Origin: Patescibacteria group bacterium
Lineage (GTDB): Bacteria; Patescibacteriota; Patescibacteriia; Buchananbacterales; UBA6539
NCBI GenBank assembly: GCA_041662625.1
Contig: JBAZSB010000002.1
Span: forward strand, 12,024-76,023
DNA length: 64,000 nucleotides
Reading direction: 5' to 3'
This document shows, one piece after another, positions 21,483 to 35,608 of this stretch (position 1 is the stretch's first letter; each line of letters begins with the position of its first letter). The position numbers and the translations under genes were made by a program. The notes beneath the pieces were generated by a model. That model did not search any database. It was not told the DNA's origin and saw only the letters and a list, made by a program, of their open reading frames with translations.

Positions 21483-22784
21483 ATGAAATATAAGTATCTT
21501 CAAACTCATGATCCTGAAGTCAGCCAAACTCTACAGGGAGAGATGAACCGACAAAGAGAAGGAATGGAATTGATTCCTTCGGAAAATTATGTTTCACAGG
21601 CGGTTTTGGATGCTTTGGGTTCAGAGTTCACAAATAAATATAGTGAAGGCTATCCGGGACGACGCTACTATGGCGGTCAGCAATTTACTGATCAAGTGGA
21701 GTCACTGGCTATTGAGCGAGCGAAAAAATTATTCCGTTGCGACCATGCCAATGTTCAGCCGCTTTCCGGCGCTCCCGCCAACGTCGCAGTCTATTCGGCC
21801 TGGCTTAATCCTGGTGATACCGTCATTGGGATGGACCTTTCCCATGGCGGTCATCTTACTCATGGCCATCCGGTTACCTACATGGCTAAAATTTATAATT
21901 TCGTCCGCTATAAAATTAAGGATTTGGAAACCGGGGAAATTGATTATGACCAGCTGCGGGATTTGGCCCTAAAGCATAAACCAAAAATTATCCTGGCCGG
22001 TTTTTCCGCCTACCCACGCGAATATGACTACGCCAAATTTTCTGAAATTGCTAAAGAAGTTGGCGCCATCGCTATGGCCGACATGGCTCATATTGCCGGT
22101 TTAATTGCCGCCGGCGAACTCAAAAATCCTTTTGATTATGGTTTCCAAATTGTCACTACCACTACACACAAAACTTTGCGCGGACCTCGCGGTGGCATGA
22201 TTATGTCCCAGGGCAAAGTCGGTAATCCTTTAAAAGAAGTAGAAAAAACTATTGAGAATCTACCAACCATTATTGACCGGGCGGTTTTTCCGGGTTTTCA
22301 GGGTGGACCGCATATGAATAATATCGCCGCCAAGGCTGTCGCTTTCGGCGAAGCGTTAACACCTGAATTTAAGGAATACGCCAAGCAAATTTTAAAAAAT
22401 GCCAAAGTTCTAGCGGAAACGCTAATGAGTTTAGGCTGTAAATTGGTTACCAACGGCACGGATAATCATTTAATGCTAATTGACACCGTCACTTCCTTTG
22501 GCATAACCGGCGACGTGGTGGAAAAAACCTTGGATAAAATCAATATTACTTCAAATAAAAACGCTATTCCGGATGATAAAAATCCCTATTACACACCATC
22601 AGGTATTCGGATCGGGACACCGGCCATTACCACCAGAGGCATGAAAGAACAAGAGATGAAACGAATTGCTGAATGGATTGTTGAGGCGGCGAAAAACCGG
22701 GATAATGAAGCGAAATTGAAAGAAATCCAGCAAACAGTCAAAGAGCTCTGCCTTAAATTTCCAATTCCCAGCATCCAGGAATAA
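21483..22784 (+). CDS. glyA: Serine hydroxymethyltransferase
   Basis: LIPSENYVSQAVLDALGSEFTNKYSEGYPGRRYYGG and the PLP-lysine region TTTTHKTLRGPRGGMI; 433 aa. Confidence 0.95.
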   Translation: MKYKYLQTHDPEVSQTLQGEMNRQREGMELIPSENYVSQAVLDALGSEFTNKYSEGYPGRRYYGGQQFTDQVESLAIERAKKLFRCDHANVQPLSGAPANVAVYSAWLNPGDTVIGMDLSHGGHLTHGHPVTYMAKIYNFVRYKIKDLETGEIDYDQLRDLALKHKPKIILAGFSAYPREYDYAKFSEIAKEVGAIAMADMAHIAGLIAAGELKNPFDYGFQIVTTTTHKTLRGPRGGMIMSQGKVGNPLKEVEKTIENLPTIIDRAVFPGFQGGPHMNNIAAKAVAFGEALTPEFKEYAKQILKNAKVLAETLMSLGCKLVTNGTDNHLMLIDTVTSFGITGDVVEKTLDKINITSNKNAIPDDKNPYYTPSGIRIGTPAITTRGMKEQEMKRIAEWIVEAAKNRDNEAKLKEIQQTVKELCLKFPIPSIQE

Positions 22785-22852
22785 GTGTGATTGAAAAAGA
22801 TAAGCAAGCAAATCCAGAAATTTCCGGTTTACCCCATAATGACACTGAAAAA

Positions 22853-23713
22853 ATGCCAAAAAAAACTGCTCAACTTATTGACGGCAAAAATTTGGCCGAA
22901 AAAATTCTTTTGGAACTCAAAGGCCAAATTGCCCAGCTGAACCGGCCGCCGGGACTGGCCGTGATTTTAATCGGCGACGATCCGGCCTCCAAACTTTATG
23001 TCCGAAACAAAAAACTGGCTTGCGAAAAAGTCGGCATTGTTTTCCATAGTTATTTTTGCGGCGGGACTTGTCTGCCTAACGTGACCGAAATTGAAATTTT
23101 AAAAGCAATTGATTTTTTAAATAATGATCCGACAATTGACGGCATTATCGTTCAGCTGCCAATCCCCCAAAAATTTAATACCCAAAAAATAATCAATCGG
23201 ATCGATCCGAAAAAAGATGTTGATGGTTTCCATCCAGAAAATCAGAAGAAAATTATTACCGGCACGGCAATTATAATTCCGCCTTTGATTCAGGCCGTAA
23301 ATGCGGCGTTAATGGCAACCCAGGAAGAATTAAAAGATAAAAATACAATTATTATTTCAAAAAACCCAATCTTTAGCGAGCCGCTCAAAATATATCTCAG
23401 TAATCAGGGATTGAAAGTAGAAACGGTTAAGCCTGACCAGGGCTTAGCTGATAAAACTAAAAAGGCCGACATTTTAATTACCGTTGTCGGCCAAAAACAC
23501 CTGATCAAAAAAAATATGGTCAAACCTGATGCCATTATCATTGACGTTGGAACTAATTTAATTAGTGAAAATAAGTGGACTGGTGATGTTGATCAAAAGG
23601 TAACCGAAGTGGCGGGATGGCTCACACCGGTTCCTGGCGGCATTGGCCCATTAACTGTCGCCTTTTTATTGACTAACACTTATCAATTAGCCAAAAAAAA
23701 TTTATATGCTTGA
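22853..23713 (+). CDS. folD: Bifunctional 5,10-methylene-THF dehydrogenase / 5,10-methenyl-THF cyclohydrolase
   Basis: AQLIDGKNLAEKI...YVRNKKLACEKVGI...GIIVQLPIP...PVPGGIGPLTVAFL. Start moved to MPKKTAQ; the ORF opens at 22787 immediately after glyA. Confidence 0.9.
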   Translation: MPKKTAQLIDGKNLAEKILLELKGQIAQLNRPPGLAVILIGDDPASKLYVRNKKLACEKVGIVFHSYFCGGTCLPNVTEIEILKAIDFLNNDPTIDGIIVQLPIPQKFNTQKIINRIDPKKDVDGFHPENQKKIITGTAIIIPPLIQAVNAALMATQEELKDKNTIIISKNPIFSEPLKIYLSNQGLKVETVKPDQGLADKTKKADILITVVGQKHLIKKNMVKPDAIIIDVGTNLISENKWTGDVDQKVTEVAGWLTPVPGGIGPLTVAFLLTNTYQLAKKNLYA

Positions 23714-25540: not shown

Positions 25541-25596
25541 TTATCCTCCCACGGTTTTGATTTCAACTAGCCTGATTCAGCTTTTTATCTTAATAT

Positions 25597-25628
25597 AAAA
25601 AAATAGCCTTGGCAAGCCAGGCTATTTT
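25597..25628. terminator. Bidirectional stem-loop terminator
   Basis: AAAAAATAGCCTTGGCAAGCCAGGCTATTTTTT. Confidence 0.6.
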
Positions 25629-25638
25629 TTACTACTAA

Positions 25639-26100
25639 TTAAACTGTTGGTTTTTTGGGCAAGACAGGTGGCTGTTGCGGTTGCGGTGGCGGGGCAGTTG
25701 GTTTCATCAGTTGGCCACCACGAGTAGTCAAGGCGGCAATAACTAAAGCCCCAAACATCAATAAAAACCCAACCCAAAGATTCCACATGCTGTAAAAACT
25801 TTTTAAGCCAGAAAGATAAGTGCCAGCTGCCTTCACATATTGAATCGTTACCAATAAATCCAAAATGCCGCCCAAAATAAACCAGCTAACACCCAAAATC
25901 AAACCATCTTTAACACCACCAGGATGCTTTCTGAAATAGAGTCTACCCAAAACAAAGGCGGCCACACCAGATAAAATGATTTCTAAAATCTGTTGCCAAA
26001 TAACCGGCAAAGGCGTGACCATCAGGGCGCAAACGCCGATAAACATTACGGCCCACATGCCCGCACCAAGCCCTAAGGCAAGTTTTAAATTTTTGATCAT
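25639..26100 (-). CDS. Membrane protein (4 TM) with a Pro/Gln-rich C-terminus
   Basis: Hydrophobic helices and C-terminal PPPQPQQPPVLPKKP. Confidence 0.45.
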   Translation of the reverse strand: MIKNLKLALGLGAGMWAVMFIGVCALMVTPLPVIWQQILEIILSGVAAFVLGRLYFRKHPGGVKDGLILGVSWFILGGILDLLVTIQYVKAAGTYLSGLKSFYSMWNLWVGFLLMFGALVIAALTTRGGQLMKPTAPPPQPQQPPVLPKKPTV

Positions 26101-26111
26101 AGATTTTTTTA

Positions 26112-26492
26112 TTAATAAACTTTTATTAAATTGCAGTTACCGTCCACTTCGACAAAGTGATGAGCGGTACCTTCCCGAAAAGCCGGGCATTGATTTGCCA
26201 CTTCGTCATCAACGCTTTGGCGTGGATTATGGGCAACATCGCAAACCCAGTCCGGAACAATCGCATTACTCAGACACGGGCCGGCTTCAAAATCCTGGTC
26301 ACCACTGGAAAGCCTAGTTTGGCAAAGCTCCTGGCATTTAACCTGGGCCAAAGTCTTATCCGCCTGTTTTTTTTGTTCCACTTGGACCTTACCGGTTGTA
26401 TAATCAACGGCATTAATCACTCTTTGGCAGCCGGCAAGAATAAAAAAACCAGCCGCTAAAATCAGTGCTGTTTTTGTAAAACTTAATACCAT
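26112..26492 (-). CDS. Small secreted Cys-rich protein
   Basis: Signal peptide MVLSFTKTALILAAGFFILAGC followed by 8 Cys in ~100 aa. Confidence 0.4.
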   Translation of the reverse strand: MVLSFTKTALILAAGFFILAGCQRVINAVDYTTGKVQVEQKKQADKTLAQVKCQELCQTRLSSGDQDFEAGPCLSNAIVPDWVCDVAHNPRQSVDDEVANQCPAFREGTAHHFVEVDGNCNLIKVY

Positions 26493-26594
26493 ATTACCTC
26501 CTGGCTTTAGTATAGCATGGATAAGAAATTAAGAAAATAAGAAATTAATAAATTAAGACTGAGTTAGGCTTTAATTTTTTAATTTTTTAATTTC

Positions 26595-27062
26595 TTATTT
26601 TTTTACTTTAAATACCAGCCAATTCTTTTTTTGCGCCGTAAACTGGGTTAAAACATAAACTCCCCGGAGCTTTTTGCCCTTCAATTCAAACTTTAAAGAC
26701 TTGGATGTATGTTCCAACAGCTTAAATTTGCCTTTGTCCAAAATTTCCACCAGGCCGGCACCGTAATTACCTTTCGGGATTACTCCGGCAAAATTAATAT
26801 AGGCAACTGGATGATCTTCTACGGCAACAGCCAAATGTTTGACTCCGGCAATAGTTGGAATACCTTTGGGTACTGCCCAAGATTTTAAAACAACCGGACC
26901 TTTAATAATTTTATCTGGCAATTCCAACCTGAAATCATAATGCAAATGTGAGGCTGAATGTTTTTGGACAACAAAACGTGACTGGCTTTTTATTTTAGCT
27001 TGTGCCTTAGGCTCCGGCGTTTTACTAAACTTTCTTTTCTTTTGATATTTTTCTAAAGCCAT
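26595..27062 (-). CDS. Stand-alone LigD-type 3'-phosphoesterase (PE) domain protein
   Basis: RFVVQKHSASHLHYDFRLE...LKSWAVPKG matches the LigD PE active-site block (HxxHxHYDFRLE, WAVPKG); 155 aa. Confidence 0.7.
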   Translation of the reverse strand: MALEKYQKKRKFSKTPEPKAQAKIKSQSRFVVQKHSASHLHYDFRLELPDKIIKGPVVLKSWAVPKGIPTIAGVKHLAVAVEDHPVAYINFAGVIPKGNYGAGLVEILDKGKFKLLEHTSKSLKFELKGKKLRGVYVLTQFTAQKKNWLVFKVKK

Positions 27063-27068
27063 ACAAAT

Positions 27069-27130
27069 AGAAATCAGAAATTAGAAATCAGAAGAATAAT
27101 TCTGATCTCTGATCTCTGATTTCTGATCTC
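27069..27130. repeat. Long imperfect inverted repeat built of tandem AGAAATCAGA units
   Basis: agaaatcagaaattagaaatcagaagaat | aattctgatctctgatctctgatttctgatctc, lying between two minus-strand genes. Confidence 0.7.
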
Positions 27131-27134
27131 TGGA

Positions 27135-27416
27135 TTATCCCTTAAGATAAACCAAATCGCCTTCTTTGACTGACTGGGCCACTTTTAAACCAACAGCGTC
27201 ACCAGATTTAGCGACACTCACCTGTTCATGTTCGACTTGCATTGAATCAACCGGCTGCTCAAAATCACCACCATGAGTCGCGATGATAATGGTATCGCCG
27301 ACTTTAAGTTGGCCGGCTAATTCCAAGACTCCGACCCCGATTTTGTTAAAGTAGTGGGTGATTTTGCCAATCTGCTTACCTTTGGGTAATTCAATTTTTT
27401 GTGCATCGTCTGCCAT
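27135..27416 (-). CDS. Small beta-barrel protein resembling translation-factor domain 2 (EF-Tu D2-like)
   Basis: 93 aa; GKITHYFNKIGVGVLELAGQLKVGDTIII...GDAVGLKV...EGDLVYL is the pattern of the EF-Tu domain-2 barrel. Confidence 0.4.
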   Translation of the reverse strand: MADDAQKIELPKGKQIGKITHYFNKIGVGVLELAGQLKVGDTIIIATHGGDFEQPVDSMQVEHEQVSVAKSGDAVGLKVAQSVKEGDLVYLKG

Positions 27417-27461
27417 ATACTAAAATTCTAGCTTTTAAGCCAAAATAAGTCAATGGAGTCA

Positions 27462-27514
27462 AAAAAAGAGACCAGCTGACAGAGTACCTCCTTTCTTCTG
27501 TCAAACTGGTCACA
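27462..27514 (-). terminator. Rho-independent terminator ending the GC-rich purine operon
   Basis: On the minus strand: GACCAGTTTGACAG...CTGTCAGCTGGTC followed by TCTTTTTTT. Confidence 0.6.
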
Positions 27515-27540
27515 AGTAGCATTCAGGGCATCCCTCCGGA

Positions 27541-28842
27541 TTAGCCCATGTAGTTGTCGAGTTCTTCCCGACGCATCTGATCGAAGGCATACACTGCCGG
27601 ATTGGTCTGCCCCAGAATCTGCATCGCCGCTCCGATCGCGTTGCCTTCGGGCCAAGTCGTCAGATTCGGCGTCTGCGATGGCAGGTGTACGCTTGACCAA
27701 AGATCATCCGGAAATTGCTCGAGAGTCGCTGGGACCGAAATCACTGGCCAAGGACTGTGAGCCGCGACGATCGGACCCAGACCATTGGACCGGCCGGCCT
27801 TGACCACGATGACGCCACCTTGCGGATAGTCATAGAACAGCCGTTCCAGACGCTGCAGCCCCTCAACCGGACTCTTGTGGCCGGAAGCCACGATCCGTTC
27901 AACGGTGACTCCAGGCAACTGGGGAACTTTTGGTGCTTCATCCTTGTCGGACCCAAGCCAGACAACCAGCGCCTGTCTCGGGAGCACCAAGCGTTCGGCC
28001 ATCTGGGCGACGTAACGGTAGTTCTCTTCGACTTGGCCAAGGACAGCAGCGCCACCATCGCGGAACACCTGCTTATCGAGCGGTTTGCCATTTTCCCAAA
28101 GACGCCAACTGTCGTTGTCCACGACATCGGAAACTCGGAGTTCGCTGTCGGCTTCGATCTTGATGTCAAGCCATGTGAGGCCAAAGTTCGCCCAGGCCCG
28201 CTCAAGGATCAAAGACACCCGGCGAACCAATTGATCAAGCTTGGCCATATCCGCCAGATCGGTGATGACCCCACTAGCAGGAATCTTGGCAAACGGGCTA
28301 ACCCGATGTCGACTCTCACCCTCGCCCTCTTCATGCCAGATCGGCTTCTTGGGCAAGGCAAGATCCCAGGTATCCTTGAAGGGATCAAGGATCAACGGAT
28401 CGTCGCAGGGTAGTGATAGGCCTTTCCAATCTCGACCAGTCGTCTTGAGGAAGAACTCAACCAACAACCGGTGAAAACGGTACGGCTTGGTTGGATCAGC
28501 CGTTCGAAGCTGGGGATTGCGCATCAGGAAACTGCCAACTCCCAGCCGTCGGGCGACAATCTCCAGCAGCAACATCAGCGACCGCAGCGCGACAAACTCC
28601 GTTTCGGAAATCTGCTCCACGTAAGCCACCGGCACGTCGCAAGTCCGAAGAAGTTCGAAAACGCGGCAAGTGGTTATGGTAGCACATTGGGCTTTGGACC
28701 CAAACTTCTGGGTAAAACTCGGGTCATCATGGGCAGTGATGTCCGAACCATTCCTGACGATCACCAGATCGTCTCGGCCTTCTACTGCGAAGATACCCTT
28801 GGTTTTGCCCTTGGCTATCTGCTTACCTAGTGTATACTCCAT
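27541..28842 (-). CDS. purC-purE: Bifunctional SAICAR synthetase (PurC) - N5-CAIR mutase/AIR carboxylase (PurE) fusion, PAICS-like
   Basis: The N-terminal half has PurC blocks (GKTKGIF, DDLVIVRNGSDITAHDD, WLDIKIE). The C-terminal half has PurE blocks (VVWLGSDKDE, IVASGHKSP similar to SAHRTP, AGRSNGLGPIVAAHSPWPVISVP). GC ~60%. Confidence 0.75.
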   Translation of the reverse strand: MEYTLGKQIAKGKTKGIFAVEGRDDLVIVRNGSDITAHDDPSFTQKFGSKAQCATITTCRVFELLRTCDVPVAYVEQISETEFVALRSLMLLLEIVARRLGVGSFLMRNPQLRTADPTKPYRFHRLLVEFFLKTTGRDWKGLSLPCDDPLILDPFKDTWDLALPKKPIWHEEGEGESRHRVSPFAKIPASGVITDLADMAKLDQLVRRVSLILERAWANFGLTWLDIKIEADSELRVSDVVDNDSWRLWENGKPLDKQVFRDGGAAVLGQVEENYRYVAQMAERLVLPRQALVVWLGSDKDEAPKVPQLPGVTVERIVASGHKSPVEGLQRLERLFYDYPQGGVIVVKAGRSNGLGPIVAAHSPWPVISVPATLEQFPDDLWSSVHLPSQTPNLTTWPEGNAIGAAMQILGQTNPAVYAFDQMRREELDNYMG

Positions 28843-28863
28843 GGCATTCCTTTCTCCGACTTT

Positions 28864-29397
28864 TCAGCCGATCTGTTCCTGGTCTTCCGAATCTTCCGGT
28901 CGACCTTCCGATCTCTGACCACAACGGTCACAACCGTCACACTGGTGACCCACGGCAAACCGTTTCAACTCATCGAGCATCTCCAGCACTCCCGCTGCGG
29001 GTTGACCGGATTTCTCGAGTACGGCATCAGCGACCTTGATCGAACATTTGACGCGTAGCGCCACGGCAATGGCGTCGCTGGGCCGCGAATCAACCTTGAC
29101 GACCCCGCCTGCGGTTTTCAACTCGATATAGCCCAGGAAAATCCCGTTACCAGTGAGTTGGTTGATGCCAACTTCCAAAACCTCAGCATCCAAGCCAGCC
29201 AAGATGTTCACGATTAAGTCGTGGGTCATCGGCCTTATAGGCACTTGACCAGCCAAGGCCATACCGATGGCCACAGCTTCGGCTGGACCAATCATGACTG
29301 GTAAGATCAGAGCCGCCGCTTCACTGTGTAACAACACTGTTGGTCGACCTTGGCTATCCTGGACTACAGCCAACGCATGGAGTTCTTGTCTATCCAT
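28864..29397 (-). CDS. Bifunctional-nuclease (BFN/DUF151) family protein with a Cys-rich acidic C-terminal tail
   Basis: The PSDAIAVALR motif and domain length match BFN; the C-terminus carries CDGCDRCGQ. Confidence 0.55.
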   Translation of the reverse strand: MDRQELHALAVVQDSQGRPTVLLHSEAAALILPVMIGPAEAVAIGMALAGQVPIRPMTHDLIVNILAGLDAEVLEVGINQLTGNGIFLGYIELKTAGGVVKVDSRPSDAIAVALRVKCSIKVADAVLEKSGQPAAGVLEMLDELKRFAVGHQCDGCDRCGQRSEGRPEDSEDQEQIG

Positions 29398-29476
29398 CGC
29401 ATTCTCTCCTTATGTGGAGTAAGGGTGGGCCAGCCCGGCAAAGGACCGGCCCACACCAGTTTCAGGTTGGAGAACT

Positions 29477-30745
29477 CTACTCCGGCACTTTCCCGTCGGG
29501 ATAAAGGACCGAGTGGCCCTTGCCCTGCGAGATCAGCGACCGGTACGTTTCGAGTGCCGTTTGAACGGCCGGATCAGTCAGGTCCAGTGTCTGGCGTTTC
29601 TCGGCGGCCATATAGGCGGCCTGACAGAGCCTGGTGATTTCCAAGCCGTATTCCCAGTTCAACAGTCCGTCATGGCCTTCACGGAAAGCATCACGGGCAT
29701 CGACCTGCTCATCAACGTAACCGTAAAGGTCGGGTTCGTTGGGCTGAACAGCCAGAAGGCCACGCGAAGCCGTCGACTTCTCCAAGGCCCCCTCGGCATC
29801 GGTCACGGCTTCGGCCGCGGCATCGCCGATGAAGACCTCAAGCGACGAACGCAAGGAGTTGACCTCCAAAGCATAGCCCGGGCCCATTCCTTCCATCGAG
29901 AGTCGGAGGCCCTGCTTGTCGTACATCCAAGAAGTGGCAAACTGAGCCACAACACGCTGCCGGGTCTCCGGATTCTCAAAGGTGACCAGACCGGTGGCGA
30001 AGTCTTCGGCCGGAACCAACGCGTAGTCAACGCCCATCCTCTTCAGGAGTTGGGCTCGATACTTGGGCTGGCCCCACTTCAGAAGCAGGGTATCGGCCCC
30101 AATACTAACCGGCCTGAGGAATCTCAGATCCTTGCCGACCGGTGTCAAAAGACGCCAAAGCACCGCGATGGTGTGGCAAGCCATGTCCGAAAGGACACCG
30201 CCACCTTGCCGGGTTGCATCCCAGAACCAACCCTCGTGGGGTCCAGAATGTTCTTCGCCGCCACGAGCCAAAACCAACGGCCCCATCTTTCCTTGGACGC
30301 GAGCCAGACCTTTCAGCCCTGCTTTGATGGCTTTCATGTGGATCTGGTTCTCGAAGTACGAGGTCGGGCAGCCGAGAGTCTTGGCCAGCTCAACCATACG
30401 GCGAGCCTCGGTAATGGTTCGGCCCAACGGCTTTTCGCAGATCAGCCCTTTGGGTTTCTTACCCAGTCTCGTCGCCGCATCGACGACCTGTTCCATCAAT
30501 TCAACGCGGAACGGATTCGGGGCGAAATTGGCAATCACGTCGCAATGCTCGACAAGATCGGCGACGCTTTTGTATACTACGCAATCAATTTCGCCGGTAG
30601 CGGTGGCCTTAGCGGCCAGTTGTTCCGCACCCTTCAGGGCGTGGACACCGCCGAATTCCAAACCAGGTACCAACTGGTTGGCGGCCTGCTGGAAATTGGC
30701 AACAAATCCAGCACCCATCGATCCTAGTCTGAGGATTTCCTTCAT
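29477..30745 (-). CDS. Gfo/Idh/MocA-family NAD(P)-dependent oxidoreductase
   Basis: N-terminal Rossmann fold, the EKP motif (LICEKPLGRTITEARRMVELAK) and length 422 aa; RBS AAAGGAGAG. Confidence 0.75.
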   Translation of the reverse strand: MKEILRLGSMGAGFVANFQQAANQLVPGLEFGGVHALKGAEQLAAKATATGEIDCVVYKSVADLVEHCDVIANFAPNPFRVELMEQVVDAATRLGKKPKGLICEKPLGRTITEARRMVELAKTLGCPTSYFENQIHMKAIKAGLKGLARVQGKMGPLVLARGGEEHSGPHEGWFWDATRQGGGVLSDMACHTIAVLWRLLTPVGKDLRFLRPVSIGADTLLLKWGQPKYRAQLLKRMGVDYALVPAEDFATGLVTFENPETRQRVVAQFATSWMYDKQGLRLSMEGMGPGYALEVNSLRSSLEVFIGDAAAEAVTDAEGALEKSTASRGLLAVQPNEPDLYGYVDEQVDARDAFREGHDGLLNWEYGLEITRLCQAAYMAAEKRQTLDLTDPAVQTALETYRSLISQGKGHSVLYPDGKVPE

Positions 30746-30873
30746 CAGTCTCTCCTTTCAATCAAACACTGTCTCCAATCTCTCTCCCGCCCTGAAACAG
30801 ATCAGGCCGGAACACTTCTTTTTGTTTCTTTGCCGTTTCTCCTTCCTTATCTTTTGTAACTTCCCTCGCTTGG

Positions 30874-30946
30874 TTGTGAAAAAACAAGTCTTTCCCTCCC
30901 TTTGGAAAAGACTATTAAAACTGGGTTTAATTTAACAAAAAAAAGC
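30874..30946. promoter_or_regulatory. Conserved ~73-bp upstream element, copy 1 (second copy at 34510..34590), containing the palindrome AGTCTTTCC-N9-GGAAAAGACT
   Basis: ttgtgaaaaaacaagtctttccctccctttggaaaagactattaaaactgggtttaatttaacaaaaaaaagc compared with ttgtcaaaaaaacaaagtcttcccctcacgttggaaaagacttttccctacaaaactggctttaatttaacaaaaaaaagc. Both lie 5' of minus-strand operons. Confidence 0.6.
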
Positions 30947-30982
30947 TATAAAGTCAATCACATGATGCTAATCTACAATTTA

Positions 30983-31014
30983 TGCGAATGATAATAATAT
31001 TCGCAACATTCGCA
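30983..31014. promoter_or_regulatory. Perfect inverted repeat TGCGAAT-N9-ATTCGCA plus a third ATTCGCA half-site (candidate operator)
   Basis: tgcgaat gataataat attcgca ac attcgca; AT-rich and lies ~240 bp upstream of the oxidoreductase start. Confidence 0.5.
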
Positions 31015-31226
31015 TACTACTCGCATCCATTATCATTATATTAAAAAAAGGACCAGACAACCTTCTTCATCTCGCCGAATCCGCTTTCAAGCGGAGAAGG
31101 CGGGACTTGGTCGTTATGGTCCCTTGGATCTCAATAGTGTACAAAACCCTCCTTAGTCTCGCCGTAGTCCGAAGGACGTAGGCGGATTAGTCTCGCCGTA
31201 GTCCGAAGGACAAAGGCGGACTTGGG

Positions 31227-32924
31227 TTAGTGGCGAAAGCCCCGGCACTTCTTGTCTGGCATCAGGTACAGCGTCATACCGGCCGCAGTCAGTTCCTCCT
31301 GAACTTTTCCGTCGTTGACCGAACCGGACGAAGCGAATAAGACGGTGATTCCTGCTTCGTGCAACACCAGACCAGCATCACCGAAAGGCAAGAAGCTATC
31401 CGAATAGGCAGCGGCTTCCACCAACCCTACTTTTTCCTCGTCCTGTCTGTTGGCTTCACCGCGCTCATAGCCTCGAACTGCCAGCTCTGCCGCACCGACG
31501 CGATCCATCCGACCGCATCCGTTGCCTTCCAGTTCGTAGACGATCATATCTCTGACTTGCCTCTGCCTCACAATGGTGATGGTATTGCTCTTGGCCTGAG
31601 AGCCGATTGCCCAACCAGCCTTGAGACAGCCTTCCAATTCTGGTCGGCGAGGTCCGATGATTTGCAGATCCGGATCGTCAAACGACGGCACAAACTGGCT
31701 CGGCGGATAATGAGTGTAGTCCCCGCCACCGACATGGGTAAAGATCGGGGTATTATCCATAGGTAGATTGCCAGCCAGCGCCGGATTCAACATCACACGG
31801 CACTTGCCTGTCTTTTTGCGCGCCAGTATTTCGATCGCATTTTCGTCAGCGCTGGGCGCAAACACAGCATCCAGAATCCGGCGCTGTCCTTTCGGCATAT
31901 GGTAATACAGCAGCATGTCAGCGATCTCGGCAGTGATATGGAAGTTGAACAGCAGTACGCCGCCATGAATCGCCAATTCATCGCCTTCGATCATGCTTCT
32001 GACCGCCTCGACGATGGCATCTCGTCCTTTGCCTTTGACAATCCCGGCACCGCAGATATTGACGTGCTTGTCCGCCAAGGCAAAACTGTGTGTGTCTGCC
32101 GGAAATACTGCCGCCAGCCGTGTCATGGTTTCGGTCAGCGTATGGAGATCATCCAAGTTGTTGCAGCTTGGACTCATGCCTTCAACTCCGACGAAGCGGC
32201 TCGGCGCCAACTCCCAATCACCACCACCGGTATACAAGGCGGCTGGCACTTGGTGAGGATTGGGTCCATAAGCGAGCGACAAAACCCGTTCGCCGCTGAT
32301 GCCGGCGAACTGTCCGTCGCTGATGAAATCTGCTGCTGTCAGGTAATGTCTGGCAATCATTGCCAGCGCTTTGCCGGCGAGGCGCTTTCGGGTCTCGGGT
32401 AAGACATCGCCATCGTTTTTCACCATTTCTTCCCAGACCTTGGGAATGTCAGATTCATCGACAACGACGATGCGCAAACGCTTTGAACCCATCGCTGCTT
32501 GCGCCGGTCCACCGACGTCAACCTTTTCCAGCACCTCCTCAAACGATAGCGCTCCACTGTCGATCGCGGCCTGGAGATCGTAGAATCCGCCGACGAATAT
32601 CTCGCAAAGTGGCCCGCCGAGTTCACGCAGCTCATCAAGGTGTTTGGGTTTGGCTGGTTTGGCACACAGTGCACCAAGTACCTTGGGATGCAGCGATACT
32701 ACGCCGTGGTCGAACATCGGCGGCGAGCCAATGGTCGCATAGTTGTTACAGGTAATACCACTCCCTTCGAGGAAACAGGTTGTGCCGTCCGACCCATAGA
32801 GGGTCAATCCCAATGATTCATGCAGATAGCGAGCAAATGCTGCAATCCCTTCTGTCTTGTCAGCAACGCTTAAAAACGCTGCCCTGACAATTCCTGAATC
32901 TGCCGTACTCACTTTATCACTCAT
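31227..32924 (-). CDS. purH: Bifunctional AICAR transformylase / IMP cyclohydrolase
   Basis: N-terminal MGS-like block FLSVADKT...GSDGT...LHPKV and the C-terminus ...SDSFLPFGDAG...VLFASSGSVNDG...RGFRH, which matches the PurH C-terminus (ASDAFFPFRD...QPGGSIRD...RHFRH). Confidence 0.8.
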   Translation of the reverse strand: MSDKVSTADSGIVRAAFLSVADKTEGIAAFARYLHESLGLTLYGSDGTTCFLEGSGITCNNYATIGSPPMFDHGVVSLHPKVLGALCAKPAKPKHLDELRELGGPLCEIFVGGFYDLQAAIDSGALSFEEVLEKVDVGGPAQAAMGSKRLRIVVVDESDIPKVWEEMVKNDGDVLPETRKRLAGKALAMIARHYLTAADFISDGQFAGISGERVLSLAYGPNPHQVPAALYTGGGDWELAPSRFVGVEGMSPSCNNLDDLHTLTETMTRLAAVFPADTHSFALADKHVNICGAGIVKGKGRDAIVEAVRSMIEGDELAIHGGVLLFNFHITAEIADMLLYYHMPKGQRRILDAVFAPSADENAIEILARKKTGKCRVMLNPALAGNLPMDNTPIFTHVGGGDYTHYPPSQFVPSFDDPDLQIIGPRRPELEGCLKAGWAIGSQAKSNTITIVRQRQVRDMIVYELEGNGCGRMDRVGAAELAVRGYERGEANRQDEEKVGLVEAAAYSDSFLPFGDAGLVLHEAGITVLFASSGSVNDGKVQEELTAAGMTLYLMPDKKCRGFRH

Positions 32925-32954
32925 ACTCGTCTCTCTCCTTTTCTCTCTCTGTTC

Positions 32955-34481
32955 CTAGGCCACAATGGCCAAGGGTTTCATTGCCTTCAATCCATTCTTC
33001 ATTTCTCTTCGCGCATCCTTGATCGCATCACCAACATAGGCTGCCGGATGCTTCAGTAGGTAAATCTCGCGTGGAGTTAATCCTTTCCAGACGCGCCGGA
33101 ACTTAGGATCAGCCCCGTCAGACTCCATATATTGCTCGGCTGCAACGCAAAGATTGGGCGCACCAGCTTTGACCCGGGCCACTAGTTCCTTCTTGACGAA
33201 GGTGTGAGCGCCTTCAAAGCCTTGCCGCTGCAATGCGTTGTGGAGTAATTCCGCTAACGATGCTGGTCCGAATATCTTGACCCAGTGCAGGCAGCGTTCT
33301 TCGTTGAACGCCAGAGCGCCCATCTGCCGATGCACGCTGTACAACTCCTGGGTAAAGTACTCAAGGGCTTCGATGAAAGTGCGCATCACCGAGGACCACC
33401 GCAAATCGCGTTGGAAGTTGCTCCCGCGCGTCAGCCACGGTCTTAAGGCACAACTCAACACGATTGCATCGGCGCCAATGGCGTTCTCAGCCCGAATGGG
33501 GTTGGCTTCCTTGGCTGCTCCCGCCGAAGAGGTCGAGGTAATACCGACATCCTTTGAAGGAATGACCTCGCCGAGTTCAGGCATGTGCAAGATCCGGAGA
33601 TCATCACACAGACTCATCATCGGTCCGCTGATCGCGACGAGCTCGCTGTAAAAACGAACCGTGTGATGAATAGGCGGAACCTGACTAGCACCTCTGGCTA
33701 CCGGCAAGTCAAGAATATTCATCAGCGTCCGTTCGGCTTTTTTGGGAATACCGACGGCGCGCTGCGATGCGGCGGTACCGACGAAACCACAGAACTTGCC
33801 CGGCACCGCCAAGGCAGCCCGTTGCAGTTCCACAGCGCAGTCAATGTATTGCTGATGGCCACAAGCCAGATAAAATCCGACTGTACCTGGTATGGCCGGC
33901 TGCAAGTGGGTGCGAAACATCTCCCGCATCTTCAGGTTTTCACCAATCTTGGCTCGCCAAACTTCATCGAGTGCCATCATCTTTGGCCAAATAATCAGAC
34001 TGAACACAACTCGAAGCTGCAAGGCATATGCCGTCGAAATCGTGTCATAGGAAGTTGCCGTATAGTGCAACCACTTCCAAAGTCCTTTGGGAAGATAACG
34101 GCGCATCAATGCCAGAAGCGCCAGGATATCGTGGCCGATTCCTTTGGTCTTCTTCTTTCTGTCTCCGTATTCGAGGCGATCCTGTTTTGTTGTGGTGACA
34201 TTCTTGAGGACGTAGAGCAAACGCTCTTTCGTCAGCAATTTGGCGTCCTTTTCCGGCATGATTCCGATAATGGCTAACGCCACCATCCAGAACCATTCCA
34301 CCAGGACCAACCAAAGTGCCCATTGGTCATAGCCGAGGTACGGAACCAGTTCCGGTTGCTGTTCTGCATATCTGTGATCCATATGCATCACCAGCACCCG
34401 CCGTCGATCCTTGGCTAAAACCGCGAAATACGCAATCGCGGCCGCTAACATCTCTCGGGCTTTATCAATAGTCATACGCAC
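32955..34481 (-). CDS. Adenylosuccinate-lyase-like protein (fumarate-lyase superfamily), divergent with a hydrophobic N-terminal extension
   Basis: A fumarate-lyase signature-like block TSTSSAGAAKEANPIRAEN (consensus GSSxMPxKxNP), length 508 aa and operon context with purH/purC-E; RBS AAGGAGG. Confidence 0.5.
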   Translation of the reverse strand: MRMTIDKAREMLAAAIAYFAVLAKDRRRVLVMHMDHRYAEQQPELVPYLGYDQWALWLVLVEWFWMVALAIIGIMPEKDAKLLTKERLLYVLKNVTTTKQDRLEYGDRKKKTKGIGHDILALLALMRRYLPKGLWKWLHYTATSYDTISTAYALQLRVVFSLIIWPKMMALDEVWRAKIGENLKMREMFRTHLQPAIPGTVGFYLACGHQQYIDCAVELQRAALAVPGKFCGFVGTAASQRAVGIPKKAERTLMNILDLPVARGASQVPPIHHTVRFYSELVAISGPMMSLCDDLRILHMPELGEVIPSKDVGITSTSSAGAAKEANPIRAENAIGADAIVLSCALRPWLTRGSNFQRDLRWSSVMRTFIEALEYFTQELYSVHRQMGALAFNEERCLHWVKIFGPASLAELLHNALQRQGFEGAHTFVKKELVARVKAGAPNLCVAAEQYMESDGADPKFRRVWKGLTPREIYLLKHPAAYVGDAIKDARREMKNGLKAMKPLAIVA

Positions 34482-34509
34482 ACCTCCTTAGTTCCAACTC
34501 CAACCCTAA

Positions 34510-34590
34510 TTGTCAAAAAAACAAAGTCTTCCCCTCACGTTGGAAAAGACTTTTCCCTACAAAACTGGCTTTAATTTAACAAAAAAAAGC
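34510..34590. promoter_or_regulatory. Conserved ~73-bp upstream element, copy 2
   Basis: See 30874..30946; lies ~30-110 bp upstream of the purB-like start. Confidence 0.6.
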
Positions 34591-34608
34591 CTGACCGTCA
34601 AATGAAGA

Positions 34609-35229
34609 CTAATCAAGCCTGATGGCATTCAATACTTGCCAAATTTGCTCCGGCGTGGTTTCGGGCACAACGGCAAACTCGATGATTCGCACTTGGCCCG
34701 CCCGATAGTGCTGGATTAAAGGCAAGGTTTGTTGGTAGTAAATCCTAAGCCTCTCCGCAATGGCAGCAGGTGTGTTGTCGTCTCGGCCGCGGCGTTCATC
34801 ATGAGCATCAAGGGCAATCCTGGCAGCAACATCATCTGGTGAACACTCCAGTACCACCACCAGTTTGATTGTGGCAAAAGATTCAACCATGCGCGCCTGA
34901 AAGACGTTGCGGGGCAGACCGTTAAGAACTACCCAGTCATCAGCTCCAACGGCCGACTCAAGGTAATGCCTTAGGATTTTTCCCGCCACGGGAAATTCAT
35001 CGTCGGCAAGCAACCTGCTAGCAGCAAAAACTTGCCCTATTACTTCATGATCATGAGCATCCAAAAAAGGCATGACGTCCGGTTGTTTCTGAGCAGTTCT
35101 CAGCTGGTCCCCGAAGTCAAAATGACAGCAACGTCTGCCGCCAAAGCCCTGCTCTTGGATTAACTTACCCAGCGGTGATTTACCACTGCCAGTTGGACCT
35201 ACTACTAAAAGAGCTTTGTGTCGACGCAT
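34609..35229 (-). CDS. Adenylate-kinase-family nucleoside monophosphate kinase
   Basis: P-loop GPTGSGKS, NMP-binding and LID-like motifs (LNGLPRN, RRGRDDN). Start placed at the internal ATG that has RBS GGAGGAAGG; the ORF opens at 35307. Confidence 0.6.
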   Translation of the reverse strand: MRRHKALLVVGPTGSGKSPLGKLIQEQGFGGRRCCHFDFGDQLRTAQKQPDVMPFLDAHDHEVIGQVFAASRLLADDEFPVAGKILRHYLESAVGADDWVVLNGLPRNVFQARMVESFATIKLVVVLECSPDDVAARIALDAHDERRGRDDNTPAAIAERLRIYYQQTLPLIQHYRAGQVRIIEFAVVPETTPEQIWQVLNAIRLD

Positions 35230-35353
35230 TGTCCTTCCTCCGTTGTTGGGACAAACTTTTCGCCTCAAGATTAGATTAAAATTAACAGAAAATAACCAAG
35301 GCGTCAATAAAAGTCAATTGACAAAAAATAGCAACAAAACTATGCTACTAATA

Positions 35354-35552
35354 GCTGGGCGCACCGACCTTTGGTGAAACTTGTATCGGCTTCGGCCTGT
35401 CAACTGTTTGTCACCCATAACTGGTGCGCCCAACCCGAAAACTTACTGCCCTTTGTCTGGCTCACTACCAGGGCACGATCCCTGTCCTCCCCATGCAGGC
35501 CACGAATCTATGCAATGTAGTTCACCGCTACTCGTGGCCTGCTCTTTTTTTT
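35354..35552 (+). ncRNA. Candidate structured small RNA with intrinsic terminator (family unassigned)
   Basis: GC-rich segment in an intergenic region: a 9-bp closing stem GGGCGCACC/GGUGCGCCC encloses a UUCG-tetraloop hairpin (GGCUUCGGCC); further hairpins follow (CUGGCUCACUACCAG, CAGGGCACGAUCCCUG); it ends in an 11-bp stem GCAGGCCACGA/TCGTGGCCTGC plus T8. Confidence 0.35.
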
Positions 35553-35608
35553 GATTGAAAAAACTCCTCTCTTCTGCTAAGCTTAGATAGTTAAATGTTA
35601 AATGTTAA

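What the first reader, a model, noticed from the sequence alone, without database searches (positions are those of the whole stretch)
27440..35310. GC-rich (~60%) island encoding a complete AIR-to-IMP purine module with a rare PurC-PurE fusion, plus oxidoreductase and BFN nuclease, inside an AT-rich genome
Within ~8 kb, all on the minus strand and with GGAGG-type RBSs unlike the backbone, the island carries five things. These are a PurC-PurE fusion (an animal PAICS-like arrangement, unusual in bacteria), an adenylosuccinate-lyase-like protein, PurH, an adenylate-kinase-family NMP kinase, and between them a Gfo/Idh/MocA oxidoreductase and a BFN/DUF151 nuclease. Together PurE/PurC/PurB/PurH convert AIR to IMP, but no upper-pathway genes (purF/D/N/L/M) are present in the window. 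The GC content (~60% versus ~38% backbone) and codon style indicate recent horizontal acquisition (or an assembly chimera). A plausible source is a high-GC (actinobacterial-type) donor such as a host cell of an epibiont. A partial purine pathway plus a redox enzyme could also be an intermediate-scavenging or modified-purine route rather than de novo synthesis.
Basis: partly seen in the sequence, partly recalled or inferred. Interest (0 to 1): 0.65.

Follow-up and report, generated by a model that had tools for sequence, protein, structure and literature searches.

The report
GC-rich late-purine operons in Patescibacteria
A GC-rich block in an AT-rich candidate-phyla-radiation (Patescibacteria) genome encodes the last steps of purine synthesis. 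It is not an assembly error or a recent import from a high-GC host: relatives carry the same genes at the same spot, with the same odd composition and a shared control element, and only the sugar-type oxidoreductase is clearly borrowed from another phylum.

Summary
The block is real but weaker than described. GC is 53.8% over 27541-35307 against 41.3% for the rest of the window, and GC3 is 0.47-0.67 against about 0.3-0.44. It is one of several GC-rich patches. All six genes are as named, and all have Shine-Dalgarno sites that backbone genes mostly lack.

The PurC-PurE protein is a true PAICS-type enzyme with class II PurE motifs, and its model matches human and insect PAICS. It is not rare: more than 400 homologues were found, and at least 587 species genomes carry it, mostly Patescibacteria.

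Its nearest relatives sit at the same locus (YchF ... LigD-PE) in related Patescibacteria. There too the purine genes are GC3-rich and SD-led within AT-rich flanks.

Nine copies of one promoter-proximal terminator hairpin precede purine genes in five or six related genomes (L085's genome is unassigned), two of them here. PurH is Patescibacteria-type on database evidence; PurB and the kinase have relatives in Patescibacteria loci.

Only the Gfo/Idh/MocA gene is clearly foreign (63-68% identical to Planctomycetota/Hydrogenedentes proteins). It and BFN are missing from that slot in the closest relative.

A chimera is excluded. An actinobacterial donor is not supported. The cause of the persistent GC richness, and the source of AIR, remain open.

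The parts
35267..35307 (-). Promoter-like element upstream of adk. It is a weaker third copy of the pur promoter (TTGACG-17-TTAATT).
   Evidence: It is 66% identical to the reference copy in repeat family D1. Sequence was read.
34609..35229 (-). Divergent adenylate-kinase-family NMP kinase, 206 aa from the ATG at 35229. It has a P-loop GPTGSGKS, a GD.LR motif, a G.PR motif and a short-LID RGRDD.
   Evidence: Pfam ADK 45.8 bits. It scores far below all NCBIfam adk cut-offs. Best PDB match is AK5/AK1 at 2e-8. An ADK gene holds the same position next to YchF in L088 (36% identity).
34509..34601 (-). Pur leader copy B. It comprises the promoter TTGACG-17-TAAATT, then the hairpin AAAGUCUUUUCC/GGGGAAGACUUU plus a U-run, 40 nt before the purB start.
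   Evidence: Covariance model (CM) hit of 70.2 bits.
32955..34475 (-). PurB-like lyase of the fumarase/aspartase superfamily (506 aa), presumed SAICAR/adenylosuccinate lyase. Its signature loop is atypical (SSAGAAKEANP).
   Evidence: Pfam Lyase_1. NCBIfam purB scores 108 bits against a cut-off of 326. PDB ADSL 1dof matches at 2e-18. Motifs were compared. It is 45% identical to the lyase of locus L021 (Parcubacteria) but 21-31% to the lyases at the same locus in L006, L086 and L088.
31227..32924 (-). PurH (AICAR formyltransferase plus IMP cyclohydrolase), 565 aa. The KHxNxCG motif is kept. The N-terminal IMPCH motifs are degenerate.
   Evidence: Pfam AICARFT_IMPCHas 112 bits with no MGS hit. 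NCBIfam scores 201 bits against 402. PDB 3zzm matches at 1e-33. The best relative is 60% identical (L088); a mostly unnamed 34-39% set follows. Motifs were compared.
31042..31220 (-). The 3' region of purH. It holds two tandem 34-nt hairpin repeats (31153-31220), a third related hairpin, and a long-range GGACCA/UGGUCC stem plus a U-run, which looks like a terminator.
   Evidence: The terminator part is conserved in L085. Logan contigs break at the repeat.
30873..30957 (-). Pur leader copy A. It comprises the promoter TTGACT-17-TAAATT, then the hairpin AGUCUUUUCC/GGAAAGACU plus a U-run, 134 nt before the gfo start.
   Evidence: Covariance model (CM) hit of 70.0 bits. It is 84-85% identical to copy B.
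29477..30745 (-). Gfo/Idh/MocA NAD(P)-dependent oxidoreductase, 422 aa. It was acquired from outside the Patescibacteria and inserted between leader A and purCE.
   Evidence: Pfam. The 119 best hits are 63-68% identical; the named ones are Planctomycetota, Hydrogenedentes, Fidelibacterota and KSB1, and none is Patescibacteria. It is absent from all other purCE loci. In L085 the leader is followed directly by purCE.
28864..29397 (-). BFN/DUF151 bifunctional-nuclease-domain protein, 177 aa. It is part of the same insertion.
   Evidence: Pfam BFN_dom 104 bits. Its best relatives are only 34-52% identical, and the only named ones are Acidobacteriota. It does not neighbour the Gfo homologue in the one Planctomycetota contig examined, L089.
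27541..28842 (-). PAICS-type bifunctional enzyme, 433 aa. The N-terminal domain is SAICAR synthetase (PurC) and the C-terminal domain is a class II AIR carboxylase (PurE).
   Evidence: AlphaFold model with pLDDT 91. Top fold matches are human and Bombyx PAICS over the full length.
27461..27511 (-). Terminator-like hairpin (GACCAG...CUGGUC plus a U-run) that ends the gfo-bfn-purCE unit. The next promoter (27453-27425) belongs to the AT-rich backbone gene.
   Evidence: Sequence read. Promoter scan.
21483..23713 (+). Backbone glyA (SHMT) and folD. They are the likely source of the 10-formyl-THF that PurH needs. They also neighbour purCE in relatives L006 and L087.
   Evidence: Pfam. Synteny.

Best explanation
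**What it is.** The block is the resident late-purine gene set of one Patescibacteria clade. It is not a recent foreign island.

**Proposed pathway (read from homology, not tested).**
- The class II PurE domain of the PAICS-type protein carboxylates AIR to CAIR without PurK.
- The PurC domain of the same protein adds aspartate, using ATP, to give SAICAR.
- The PurB-like lyase releases fumarate to give AICAR.
- PurH formylates AICAR with 10-formyl-THF and closes the ring to IMP. The cofactor would come from GlyA and FolD, encoded 4-6 kb away.
- The ADK-family kinase phosphorylates a nucleoside monophosphate.

**Transcription.** There are three units: adk, purB-purH, and gfo-bfn-purCE. The last two begin with near-identical modules: a promoter, then a conserved terminator hairpin, then a U-run. 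I infer that this is a shared attenuator that co-regulates them.

**History.**
- The locus between ychF and the LigD phosphoesterase gene is conserved in relatives, but its content turns over. PurC and PurE are fused or separate. PurH is complete, cyclohydrolase-only, or absent. At least three mutually distant lyase types occur.
- In the window's lineage a Gfo/Idh/MocA gene from a Planctomycetota/Hydrogenedentes-like donor was inserted behind leader A, together with BFN.
- GC3 richness and Shine-Dalgarno leaders are long-standing traits of this module in the clade. My inference is that repeated gene exchange or GC-biased conversion at a recombination-prone locus keeps them up, not one recent transfer.
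For: **Identity of the enzymes**
- Pfam, NCBIfam and PDB matches support each assignment.
- The PAICS-type assignment rests on a full-length match to PDB entries 4ja0 and 2h31 (2e-44, against 2e-11 for bacterial PurC). It also rests on catalytic motifs invariant in 31 homologues, a model with pLDDT 91, and best fold matches to human and Bombyx PAICS.

**Residence in the clade**
- The PurCE tree puts the window with L085, L086, L087, L005 and L006.
- L086 keeps purCE, the EF-Tu-D2-like gene (71% identity) and LigD-PE (77%).
- L006 keeps YchF (77%), purB, purC, purCE, LigD-PE (75%), folD and glyA.
- L087 keeps purCE near folD and glyA (79%).
- L088 keeps YchF (76%), adk, purB and purH (60%).

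**Composition**
- In L086, L006 and L087 the purine genes have GC3 of 0.51-0.74 against 0.26-0.42 for the flanking backbone genes listed above.
- Across 36 Patescibacteria loci, purCE exceeds the median GC3 of its neighbours in 33 and ranks first in 17.
- Four-fold sites within the clade are near saturation.
- SD motifs precede purine genes but not backbone genes in the window, L086, L087 and L088.

**Leader**
- Nine covariance-model hits (E <= 2e-6) occur in 741 kb. All lie directly upstream of purine genes.
- All fold into the same hairpin.
- The 3' arm varies A<->G while keeping U-A/U-G pairs. There is one compensatory change.

**The gfo insertion:**

**Not a chimera:**
Against: - No activity was measured.
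- All five purine and kinase domains score far below the NCBIfam equivalog cut-offs.
- The PurB signature loop lacks the usual Met-Pro-His and has one extra residue.
- The IMP cyclohydrolase motifs of PurH are degenerate compared with its 60% relative, and Pfam sees no MGS domain. The last step may therefore be impaired.
- No upper-pathway gene, purA or guaAB is in the window, so the source of AIR and the fate of IMP are unknown.
- The cause of the persistent GC3 excess is not shown. Repeated transfer, biased gene conversion and selection are not separated.
- The purCE identities in the clade (53-74%) are lower than those of some flanking proteins (71-79%). That would also fit replacement events.
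- The regulatory role of the leader is inferred from anatomy only. It has no aptamer-sized region, and one copy (L087) lacks a U-run.
Confidence: 0.6

Rival explanations
1. The whole 8-kb block is a recent horizontal acquisition from a high-GC non-Patescibacteria donor, such as an actinobacterial host.
For: GC3 and amino-acid usage (Arg over Lys, more Ala) look like a GC-rich genome. SD sites are unlike the backbone. One gene, gfo, really is of non-Patescibacteria origin.
Against: - The best hits of PurCE are Patescibacteria proteins. PurH's best hits are mostly unnamed and match PurH in Patescibacteria loci at a similar level. PurB has a 45% relative in a Parcubacteria locus.
- No hit above 74% exists for any gene.
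- The purine genes hold the same locus in relatives, with the same leader.
- No mobility genes, tRNA or flanking repeats are present.
- The AT-rich promoters and leaders inside the block are clade-specific.
Confidence: 0.04
2. The block is an assembly or binning chimera that joins DNA of two organisms.
For: GC changes sharply at 27.45 kb. Logan contigs break inside the block at 31157-31185.
Against: - A Logan contig (window 22455-31185, 100% identical) and an ENA MEGAHIT contig (23697-29617) both span the 27.45-kb junction.
- A Logan contig spans 31157-35665, running into ychF.
- The internal break coincides with a 34-nt tandem repeat.
- The same GC-rich/AT-rich junctions and neighbours occur in L086, L006 and L087.
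- PurH followed by the leader and then purCE is contiguous in L085.
Confidence: 0.02
3. The genome lacks purF/D/N/L/M. The module then converts scavenged imidazole ribotide precursors (AIR- or AICAR-type compounds taken from a host) into IMP, and is not the end of a de novo pathway.
For: No upper-pathway gene lies in 64 kb. None lies within 10 kb (or to the contig end) of purCE in the clade relatives L005, L006, L086, L087 and L088. Patescibacteria are generally reported to have reduced biosynthesis (own knowledge).
Against: Five of 40 Patescibacteria purCE loci carry a large PurL next to purCE, so full pathways exist in the phylum. Only 64 kb of a 172-kb contig was visible. AIR is a labile phosphorylated intermediate with no known natural uptake route (own knowledge). 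No transporter or nucleoside kinase is in the block.
Confidence: 0.3
4. The persistent GC3 richness and SD leaders are kept by selection on expression. For example, SD-dependent, tightly regulated translation of this operon in an otherwise SD-poor genome. On this view neither transfer nor biased conversion is the cause.
For: The trait persists through near-saturated synonymous divergence. It travels with SD sites and a conserved leader even in the GC-rich relative L088, whose housekeeping genes lack SD.
Against: - Amino-acid composition is shifted too, which selection on codons does not predict.
- Unrelated accessory genes in the window share the trait: a CARDB/CHAP surface protein, hypothetical proteins and an acyltransferase.
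- rpoB and rpoC are not GC3-rich.
- The demonstrably foreign gfo has the same composition.
Confidence: 0.15

Closest known systems
Metazoan PAICS (human 2H31/6YB8, Bombyx mori 4JA0)
   Same: It is a single chain with SAICAR synthetase at the N-terminus and AIR carboxylase at the C-terminus, of about 430 aa. It carries the class II PurE motifs (S-x-H-K and AGRSNGLGP) and the GKTK, RR..GS, D.KIE and DNDSWR motifs. It gives the best sequence match (2e-44) and the best fold match (TM 0.65-0.68).
   Different: It is bacterial and only 25-28% identical. It is encoded in an operon behind a terminator-type leader. Its oligomeric state and any channelling are unknown. It belongs to a large, mostly Patescibacteria family that I did not find described in the literature searched.
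Class II PurE of Treponema denticola (3RGG) and archaea
   Same: The expected chemistry is PurK-independent direct carboxylation of AIR. This follows from the class II motifs. The motif definitions are from my own knowledge.
   Different: Those enzymes are stand-alone. Here the domain is fused to PurC. The fold match to 3RGG covers the C-terminal domain only.
Promoter-proximal attenuators of nucleotide operons (B. subtilis pur operon guanine riboswitch; pyrG reiterative-transcription attenuator; own knowledge)
   Same: An intrinsic terminator lies between the promoter and the first gene of nucleotide-synthesis operons. As in pyrG, the 5' arm is pyrimidine-rich and invariant (GUCUUUUCC).
   Different: There is no aptamer: only about 15-20 nt separate the -10 box from the hairpin. 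There is no Rfam match. No effector, anti-terminator or binding protein was identified. The element was found only in this clade.
Classical horizontally acquired genomic island
   Same: GC, codon, amino-acid and RBS usage are deviant, and the borders are sharp.
   Different: There is no integrase, tRNA or flanking repeat. The core genes hold the same locus in relatives and have done so through saturated synonymous divergence. Only gfo (and probably bfn) behaves like a recent insert.

Membership tests
PAICS-type bifunctional PurC-PurE | SAICAR synthetase domain followed by AIR carboxylase domain in one polypeptide | tested here: met
   Pfam SAICAR_synt (residues 9-135 and more) plus AIRC (310-418). 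Full-length alignment to PDB entries 4ja0 and 2h31.
PAICS-type bifunctional PurC-PurE | Class II PurE signatures (S-x-H-K; A-G-R-S-N-G-L-G-P), as opposed to class I (S-A-H-R; A-G-G-A-A-H-L-P-G) | tested here: met
   SGHK and AGRSNGLGP were read in the alignment to PAICS. S320, H322, G350, S352, G354 and P357 are invariant in 31 homologues. The class definitions come from my own knowledge.
PAICS-type bifunctional PurC-PurE | Overall fold matches solved PAICS | tested here: met
   Model with pLDDT 91.1 and pTM 0.91. Foldseek ranks 1-6 are human and Bombyx PAICS, E 2.5e-30 to 1.2e-24, TM 0.56-0.68.
PAICS-type bifunctional PurC-PurE | Converts AIR, CO2, Asp and ATP to SAICAR | not testable with these tools
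   This needs an enzyme assay.
Adenylosuccinate/SAICAR lyase (PurB) | Fumarase/aspartase fold with conserved regions 1 (TS.D) and 2 (TH.Q.A.P) | tested here: met
   Pfam Lyase_1. HYTATSYD and RTHLQPAIP are present.
Adenylosuccinate/SAICAR lyase (PurB) | Signature loop G-S-S-x-M-P-x-K-x-N | tested here: inconclusive
   The window has TSSAGAAKEANP. Ser-Ser, Lys and Asn-Pro are kept, Met-Pro-His is lost, and there is one extra residue. The closest relative, L021, has SSSAMSHKKANP. NCBIfam purB scores 108 bits against a cut-off of 326.
Bifunctional PurH | AICAR formyltransferase domain with catalytic K-H (KHxNPCG) | tested here: met
   Pfam AICARFT_IMPCHas 112 bits. KHVNICG was aligned.
Bifunctional PurH | IMP cyclohydrolase (MGS-like) domain with the GRVKTLHP, NLYPF and IDIGG..RAAAKN motifs | tested here: inconclusive
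   The region aligns to PurH from residue 12, but Pfam finds no MGS domain. The motifs read GVVSLHP, GGFYDL and VDVGGPAQAAMGSKR, whereas the 60% relative P0127 is canonical.
Adenylate kinase / NMP kinase family | P-loop, NMP-binding G-D-x-L-R, G-x-P-R, LID arginines | tested here: met
   GPTGSGKS, FGDQLR, GLPRN and RGRDD were read in the alignment to AK5. Pfam ADK scores 45.8 bits against 26.8. Substrate specificity is not assignable, because all NCBIfam adk and UMP-CMP kinase models score far below their cut-offs.
Recently acquired genomic island | Absent from the same locus in close relatives | tested here: not met
   purCE, a purB-type lyase, purH and/or adk hold the YchF-LigD-PE locus in L006, L086 and L088. 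The feature is met only for gfo and bfn.
Recently acquired genomic island | Close homologues in a plausible donor lineage | tested here: not met
   PurCE is at most 74% identical to any hit, and the named hits are Patescibacteria. PurH is at most 60%. Gfo is at most 68% (Planctomycetota and others). BFN is at most 52%.
Recently acquired genomic island | Mobility signatures (integrase, tRNA target, flanking direct repeats) | tested here: not met
   No tRNA is in the window. No flanking repeat was found. No integrase or transposase domain was found among the island and flanking proteins scanned.
Known riboswitch or leader families (Rfam) | Match to a curated covariance model | tested here: not met
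   No match at gathering score in 64 kb. With E <= 1 over 27-36 kb there were only chance miRNA hits.

The most novel reading that the evidence does not exclude
A clade of Patescibacteria keeps a compositionally distinct late-purine regulon inside AT-rich, SD-poor genomes. The regulon is GC3-rich and led by Shine-Dalgarno sites, and these traits have persisted through saturating divergence. It is controlled by a previously undescribed promoter-proximal terminator leader that senses purine or nucleotide status without an aptamer, for instance through an RNA-binding protein or transcription-initiation chemistry. On this reading the regulon turns imidazole ribotide intermediates obtained from a host into IMP, using a bacterial PAICS.
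Probability: 0.15. Interest if true: 0.7.

Novelty: new variant of a known kind. Interest (0 to 1): 0.42.

Why it matters
**Limits of composition as evidence.** A GC-deviant block with foreign-looking ribosome-binding sites need not be a recent import or a mis-assembly. Here the same deviation sits at the same locus in relatives whose synonymous sites have almost fully turned over. That is a cautionary case for island callers and for MAG quality filters. It also poses a concrete question about what keeps local base composition away from the genomic equilibrium.

**A bacterial PAICS family.** The animal-type PAICS architecture, with PurK-independent class II PurE, is common in Patescibacteria. 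It also occurs in some Alphaproteobacteria, Verrucomicrobiota and Planctomycetota. This bears on the origin of the metazoan enzyme.

**A testable control element.** The shared leader gives a first handle on gene regulation of nucleotide metabolism in a phylum that is essentially uncultured.

Tried and rejected
1. **Metagenome-wide scan for the leader** (pattern GTCTTTTCCAAN{4,34}GGRAAGA). None of the 80 loci listed and fetched carried a purine gene. The single metagenome scan was wasted.
2. **Rfam.** Nothing was found at the gathering threshold or at E <= 1. ZTP, purine, PRPP and PyrR-type elements are therefore not detected.
3. **Literature.** Four searches for Patescibacteria purine metabolism or bacterial PAICS fusions returned nothing pertinent.
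4. **Donor of BFN.** The exhaustive HMMER search gave only hits at 52% identity or less. The few named ones are Acidobacteriota, so no donor can be named.
5. **Co-transfer of gfo and bfn.** The one Planctomycetota contig examined has no BFN gene next to the Gfo homologue. Co-transfer is unsupported, though one contig is a thin test.
6. **Gene context of the fusion in GC-rich non-Patescibacteria genomes.** Naive ORF calling was too noisy to use.
7. **Strain variation as a clock.** The ENA contig differs from the window only in a 240-nt patch at its end (35 differences at 23699-23939). It is identical across the island junction. It is an independent assembly, not a diverged strain.
8. **DNA operator reading of the leader.** I rejected this because the arms keep pairing through U-A/U-G alternation, which matters only in RNA.
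9. **Walking the 172-kb contig to look for purF/D/N/L/M.** This was not possible.

Full report
**Source and observation**

The window comes from a 172-kb contig of a Patescibacteria metagenome-assembled genome (MAG) (NCBI proteins MFA62553xx).

- The described block exists.
- Composition was overstated. GC is 53.8% over 27541-35307, against 41.3% for the rest of the window. Only a few 300-nt windows touch 0.60.
- The deviation is strongest at third codon positions. GC3 is 0.47-0.67 in the block, against about 0.25-0.44 in backbone genes, including rpoB and rpoC at 0.35-0.37.
- It extends to amino-acid usage: more Arg and Ala, less Lys, Ile and Asn.
- The block is not unique. A hypothetical gene (2939-3541), overlapping ORFs at 3677-4213, a 1473-aa CARDB/CHAP protein (9779-14200), an acyltransferase (24674-25537) and a small ORF (41869-42336) share the trait.
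- The RBS remark holds. Eight of 9 genes with GC3 >= 0.5 have a GGAG/GAGG core upstream, against 5 of 35 others (p = 6e-5).

**Not a chimera**

- A Logan contig from SRR18595301 equals window 22455-31185 exactly.
- An ENA MEGAHIT contig covers 23697-29617. It differs only in a 240-nt patch at its far end.
- A Logan contig covers 31157-35665, running into ychF.
- A second run (SRR6484324) yields 31157-33965.
- The only break, at 31157-31185, coincides with a 34-nt tandem repeat.
- Relatives show the same GC-rich/AT-rich junctions. This is independent biological support.

**The fusion protein**

The 433-aa protein matches insect and human PAICS over its full length (2e-44 and 3e-42). Bacterial PurC proteins match only its N-terminal domain (2e-11).

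It carries the class II PurE motifs SGHK and AGRSNGLGP. It also carries the PurC motifs GKTK, RR..GS, D.KIE and DNDSWR. These are invariant in 31 homologues. An AlphaFold model (pLDDT 91, pTM 0.91) finds human PAICS 6YB8 and Bombyx PAICS 4JA0 first, with TM 0.61-0.68 for the top four chains.

The architecture is PAICS-like but not rare.
- The protein database returned 421 proteins at E <= 1e-5. The 120 listed are 43-74% identical, and nearly all show both domains. The named ones are Patescibacteria, Parcubacteria, Pacebacteria or Minisyncoccia.
- A scan of species-representative genomes found at least 587 loci before hitting its limit.
- About half of the 80 loci kept are Patescibacteria (37-53% identity). 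The rest are Xanthobacteraceae/Pseudolabrys, Verrucomicrobiota, Tepidisphaerales and Polyangiaceae at about 40%.

**The locus in relatives**

The window's PurCE clusters with L085 (74%), L086 (59%), L087 (55%), L006 (53%) and L005 (53%). Gene order in the relatives is as follows.

| Locus | Genes, in order, with identity to the window |
|---|---|
| L086 | fxsA, lyase, IMPCH-only protein, purCE, EF-Tu-D2-like gene (71%), LigD phosphoesterase (77%) |
| L006 | YchF (77%), lyase, stand-alone purC, purCE, LigD-PE (75%), then folD and glyA; further shared flank genes on both sides |
| L087 | purCE two genes from folD (60%) and glyA (79%) |
| L088 | YchF (76%), adk (36%), lyase (30%), purH (60%), a deoxyribosyltransferase-like gene, unfused purE and purC; the genome is GC-rich throughout |

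So the purine genes sit at an old, shared address whose content turns over. The lyases are the clearest sign. Those of the window, L086 and L006/L088 are only 21-31% identical to each other, while the window's is 45% identical to one in a Parcubacteria locus, L021.

**Composition in relatives**

- In L086 the lyase, IMPCH-only gene and purCE have GC3 of 0.59-0.74, against 0.40-0.42 for the flanks.
- In L006, purCE is 0.60, against about 0.31-0.42 for the backbone genes listed above.
- In L087, purCE is 0.51, against 0.26-0.36 for most flanking genes.
- Over 36 Patescibacteria loci, purCE exceeds the median GC3 of neighbouring genes in 33 and ranks first in 17. The mean excess is +0.10. PurH (6 of 6 loci) and the lyase (11 of 13) follow. 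PurL does not.
- Identity at four-fold sites between clade members is 0.31-0.48, against 0.25-0.34 expected at saturation.

An un-ameliorated remnant of one ancestral transfer therefore cannot explain the pattern. Either each lineage was re-supplied from GC-richer sources, or a local force keeps GC3 high. SD motifs likewise precede the purine genes, but not housekeeping genes, in L086, L087 and even the GC-rich L088. Which force acts is inference. I favour recombination-linked processes, because unrelated accessory genes and the demonstrably foreign gfo share the trait.

**The other genes**

- *PurH.* It has one 60% relative (L088) and then a 34-39% set, mostly unnamed. I take this set to be Patescibacteria-type because PurH in five Patescibacteria loci is 33-37% identical. 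Ordinary bacterial PurH is 26-31%. Its formyltransferase K-H motif is intact. Its cyclohydrolase motifs are degenerate compared with the 60% relative, and Pfam sees no MGS domain.
- *The lyase.* It keeps regions 1 and 2 but has an atypical signature loop.
- *The kinase.* It has all the NMP-kinase motifs but no assignable specificity.
- *Gfo/Idh/MocA.* The best 119 hits are 63-68% identical. The named ones are Planctomycetota, Sedimentisphaerales, Hydrogenedentes, Fidelibacterota, KSB1 or FCB group, and none is Patescibacteria. It occurs at no other purCE locus. In L085 the purH 3' end, the terminator and the leader are followed directly by purCE. So gfo and bfn were inserted behind the leader in this lineage.
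- *BFN.* It has no close relative.

**Transcription units and the leader**

The AT-rich gap (30746-31226) holds the purH terminator region and a new promoter. A module of about 80 nt occurs upstream of both purB (34601-34517) and gfo (30957-30879), at 84-85% identity. It comprises TTGAC(T/G), 17 nt, TAAATT, then the hairpin AGUCUUUUCC..GGRAAGACU and a U-run. A weaker promoter copy lies before adk.

The same leader precedes purCE in L085, L086 and L087. It precedes the lyase in L086, L088 and L006. It also precedes the purE-purC unit in L088.

A covariance model found nine hits (E <= 2e-6) in 741 kb, all in these positions and none elsewhere. All fold alike. The 5' arm is invariant. The 3' arm varies A<->G while keeping U-A/U-G pairs, and there is one compensatory pair. 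This points to RNA, not a DNA operator.

A terminator placed 15-20 nt after a promoter, with no room for an aptamer, suggests attenuation by a protein or by initiation chemistry. This step is inferred, not shown.

**Function**

On paper the set converts AIR to IMP. GlyA and FolD, 4-6 kb away and syntenic in relatives, would supply 10-formyl-THF.

Whether AIR comes from an upper pathway elsewhere in the genome could not be tested. Five of 40 Patescibacteria purCE loci carry a large PurL beside purCE. Full pathways therefore exist in the phylum, but none was seen near purCE in this clade.

**Verdict**

It is wrong about the donor, the recency and the rarity.

The finding is a new variant of known things: a bacterial PAICS-type late-purine regulon. 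It has two open points worth following. One is the persistence of its deviant composition. The other is its clade-specific leader.

Noticed in passing
window 30873-30957 (-) and 34509-34601 (-); also L085 289-340, L086 598-659 and 3095-3180, L087 2031-2077, L088 8292-8396 and 11902-11961, L006 7102-7162: A conserved promoter-proximal terminator hairpin ('pur leader') lies directly upstream of purine genes in five or six related Patescibacteria genomes. There are nine covariance-model hits in 741 kb and none elsewhere. The 5' arm GUCUUUUCC is invariant, the loop is AAnGnGAGG, and GACAAT usually follows the U-run. Two copies carry an extra GC hairpin inside the loop. There is no Rfam match.
   Followed up: yes
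window ~35353-35555 (+), between adk and ychF: Candidate structured small RNA of about 200 nt. A promoter-like TTGACA-17-TATGCT lies at 35318-35346. The region folds into three hairpin domains (MFE -77.6 kcal/mol for 264 nt, z = -4.9). It ends in a 13-bp GC hairpin plus U8, just before the ychF start. No Rfam match was found, and no homologue in the 209 fetched loci.
   Followed up: partly
window 31153-31220 (-) and 31060-31100 (-): Two tandem 34-nt repeats, each a CCGCC..GUCCUUCGGAC..GGCG hairpin, follow the purH stop codon immediately, with a third related hairpin after them. They are absent elsewhere in the window. Independent Logan contigs break here. The closest relative, L085, lacks them.
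   Followed up: partly
window 2939-3541 (-), 3677-4213, 9779-14200 (-), 24674-25537 (-), 41869-42336 (-): Other GC3-rich (0.55-0.67) genes, mostly led by SD sites, are scattered through the AT-rich backbone. They comprise hypothetical proteins, a 1473-aa CHAP/CARDB/PPC surface protein and an acyltransferase. The genome is a compositional mosaic, not one island.
   Followed up: partly
L032-L084 (for example L035, L044, L048, L059, L077): PAICS-like PurC-PurE fusions of about 40% identity occur in GC-rich free-living bacteria: Xanthobacteraceae/Pseudolabrys, Rhodoplanes, Terrimicrobiaceae/Chthoniobacter, Tepidisphaerales and Polyangiaceae. In these the gene has the genome's own composition. In a rough neighbour-joining tree they group with a few GC-rich Patescibacteria copies. 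The direction of transfer is unknown.
   Followed up: partly
L006 8870-9772; L088 11997-13958; L086 2208-2888: The content of the locus varies among relatives. L006 has a stand-alone PurC next to the fused PurC-PurE. L088 has unfused PurE and PurC plus a nucleoside deoxyribosyltransferase-like gene. L086 has an IMP-cyclohydrolase-only (MGS domain, PurJ-like) protein and no full PurH.
   Followed up: partly
L007 12711-16529, with homologues in L013, L015, L018 and L031: A large single-chain PurL (FGAM synthase, about 1270 aa) lies beside purCE in five Patescibacteria loci. In those loci purCE has backbone-like GC3, so some Patescibacteria encode upper-pathway steps.
   Followed up: partly
window 23699-23939: The ENA contig L002 is identical to the window over 5.7 kb, except for 35 differences packed into 240 nt at the 5' end of the VIT1/rubrerythrin-like gene. 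This could be a recombination tract or a hypervariable patch.
   Followed up: no
window 26521-26609 and 27069-27132: AT-rich repeat structures occupy backbone intergenic regions. One is an imperfect 31-nt inverted repeat made of AAGAAA(T/A)TAA units. The other is an AGAAATCAGAA/TTCTGATCTCTGA hairpin between the LigD-PE gene and the EF-Tu-D2-like gene. The only weak Rfam chance hits fall on the second.
   Followed up: no
window 5142-9534 (-): Two proteins with a 7TM histidine-kinase N-terminal domain flank a FeeM/autoinducer-synthase-like N-acyl amino acid synthase (7411-8148). One of the two is a full GAF-HisKA-HATPase kinase. A possible acyl-signal module is unusual for a reduced genome.
   Followed up: no
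window ~56900-64000 (+): No complete ORF of 100 aa or more is listed here, and GC skew turns positive. Probably one very large plus-strand gene runs off the end of the window.
   Followed up: no
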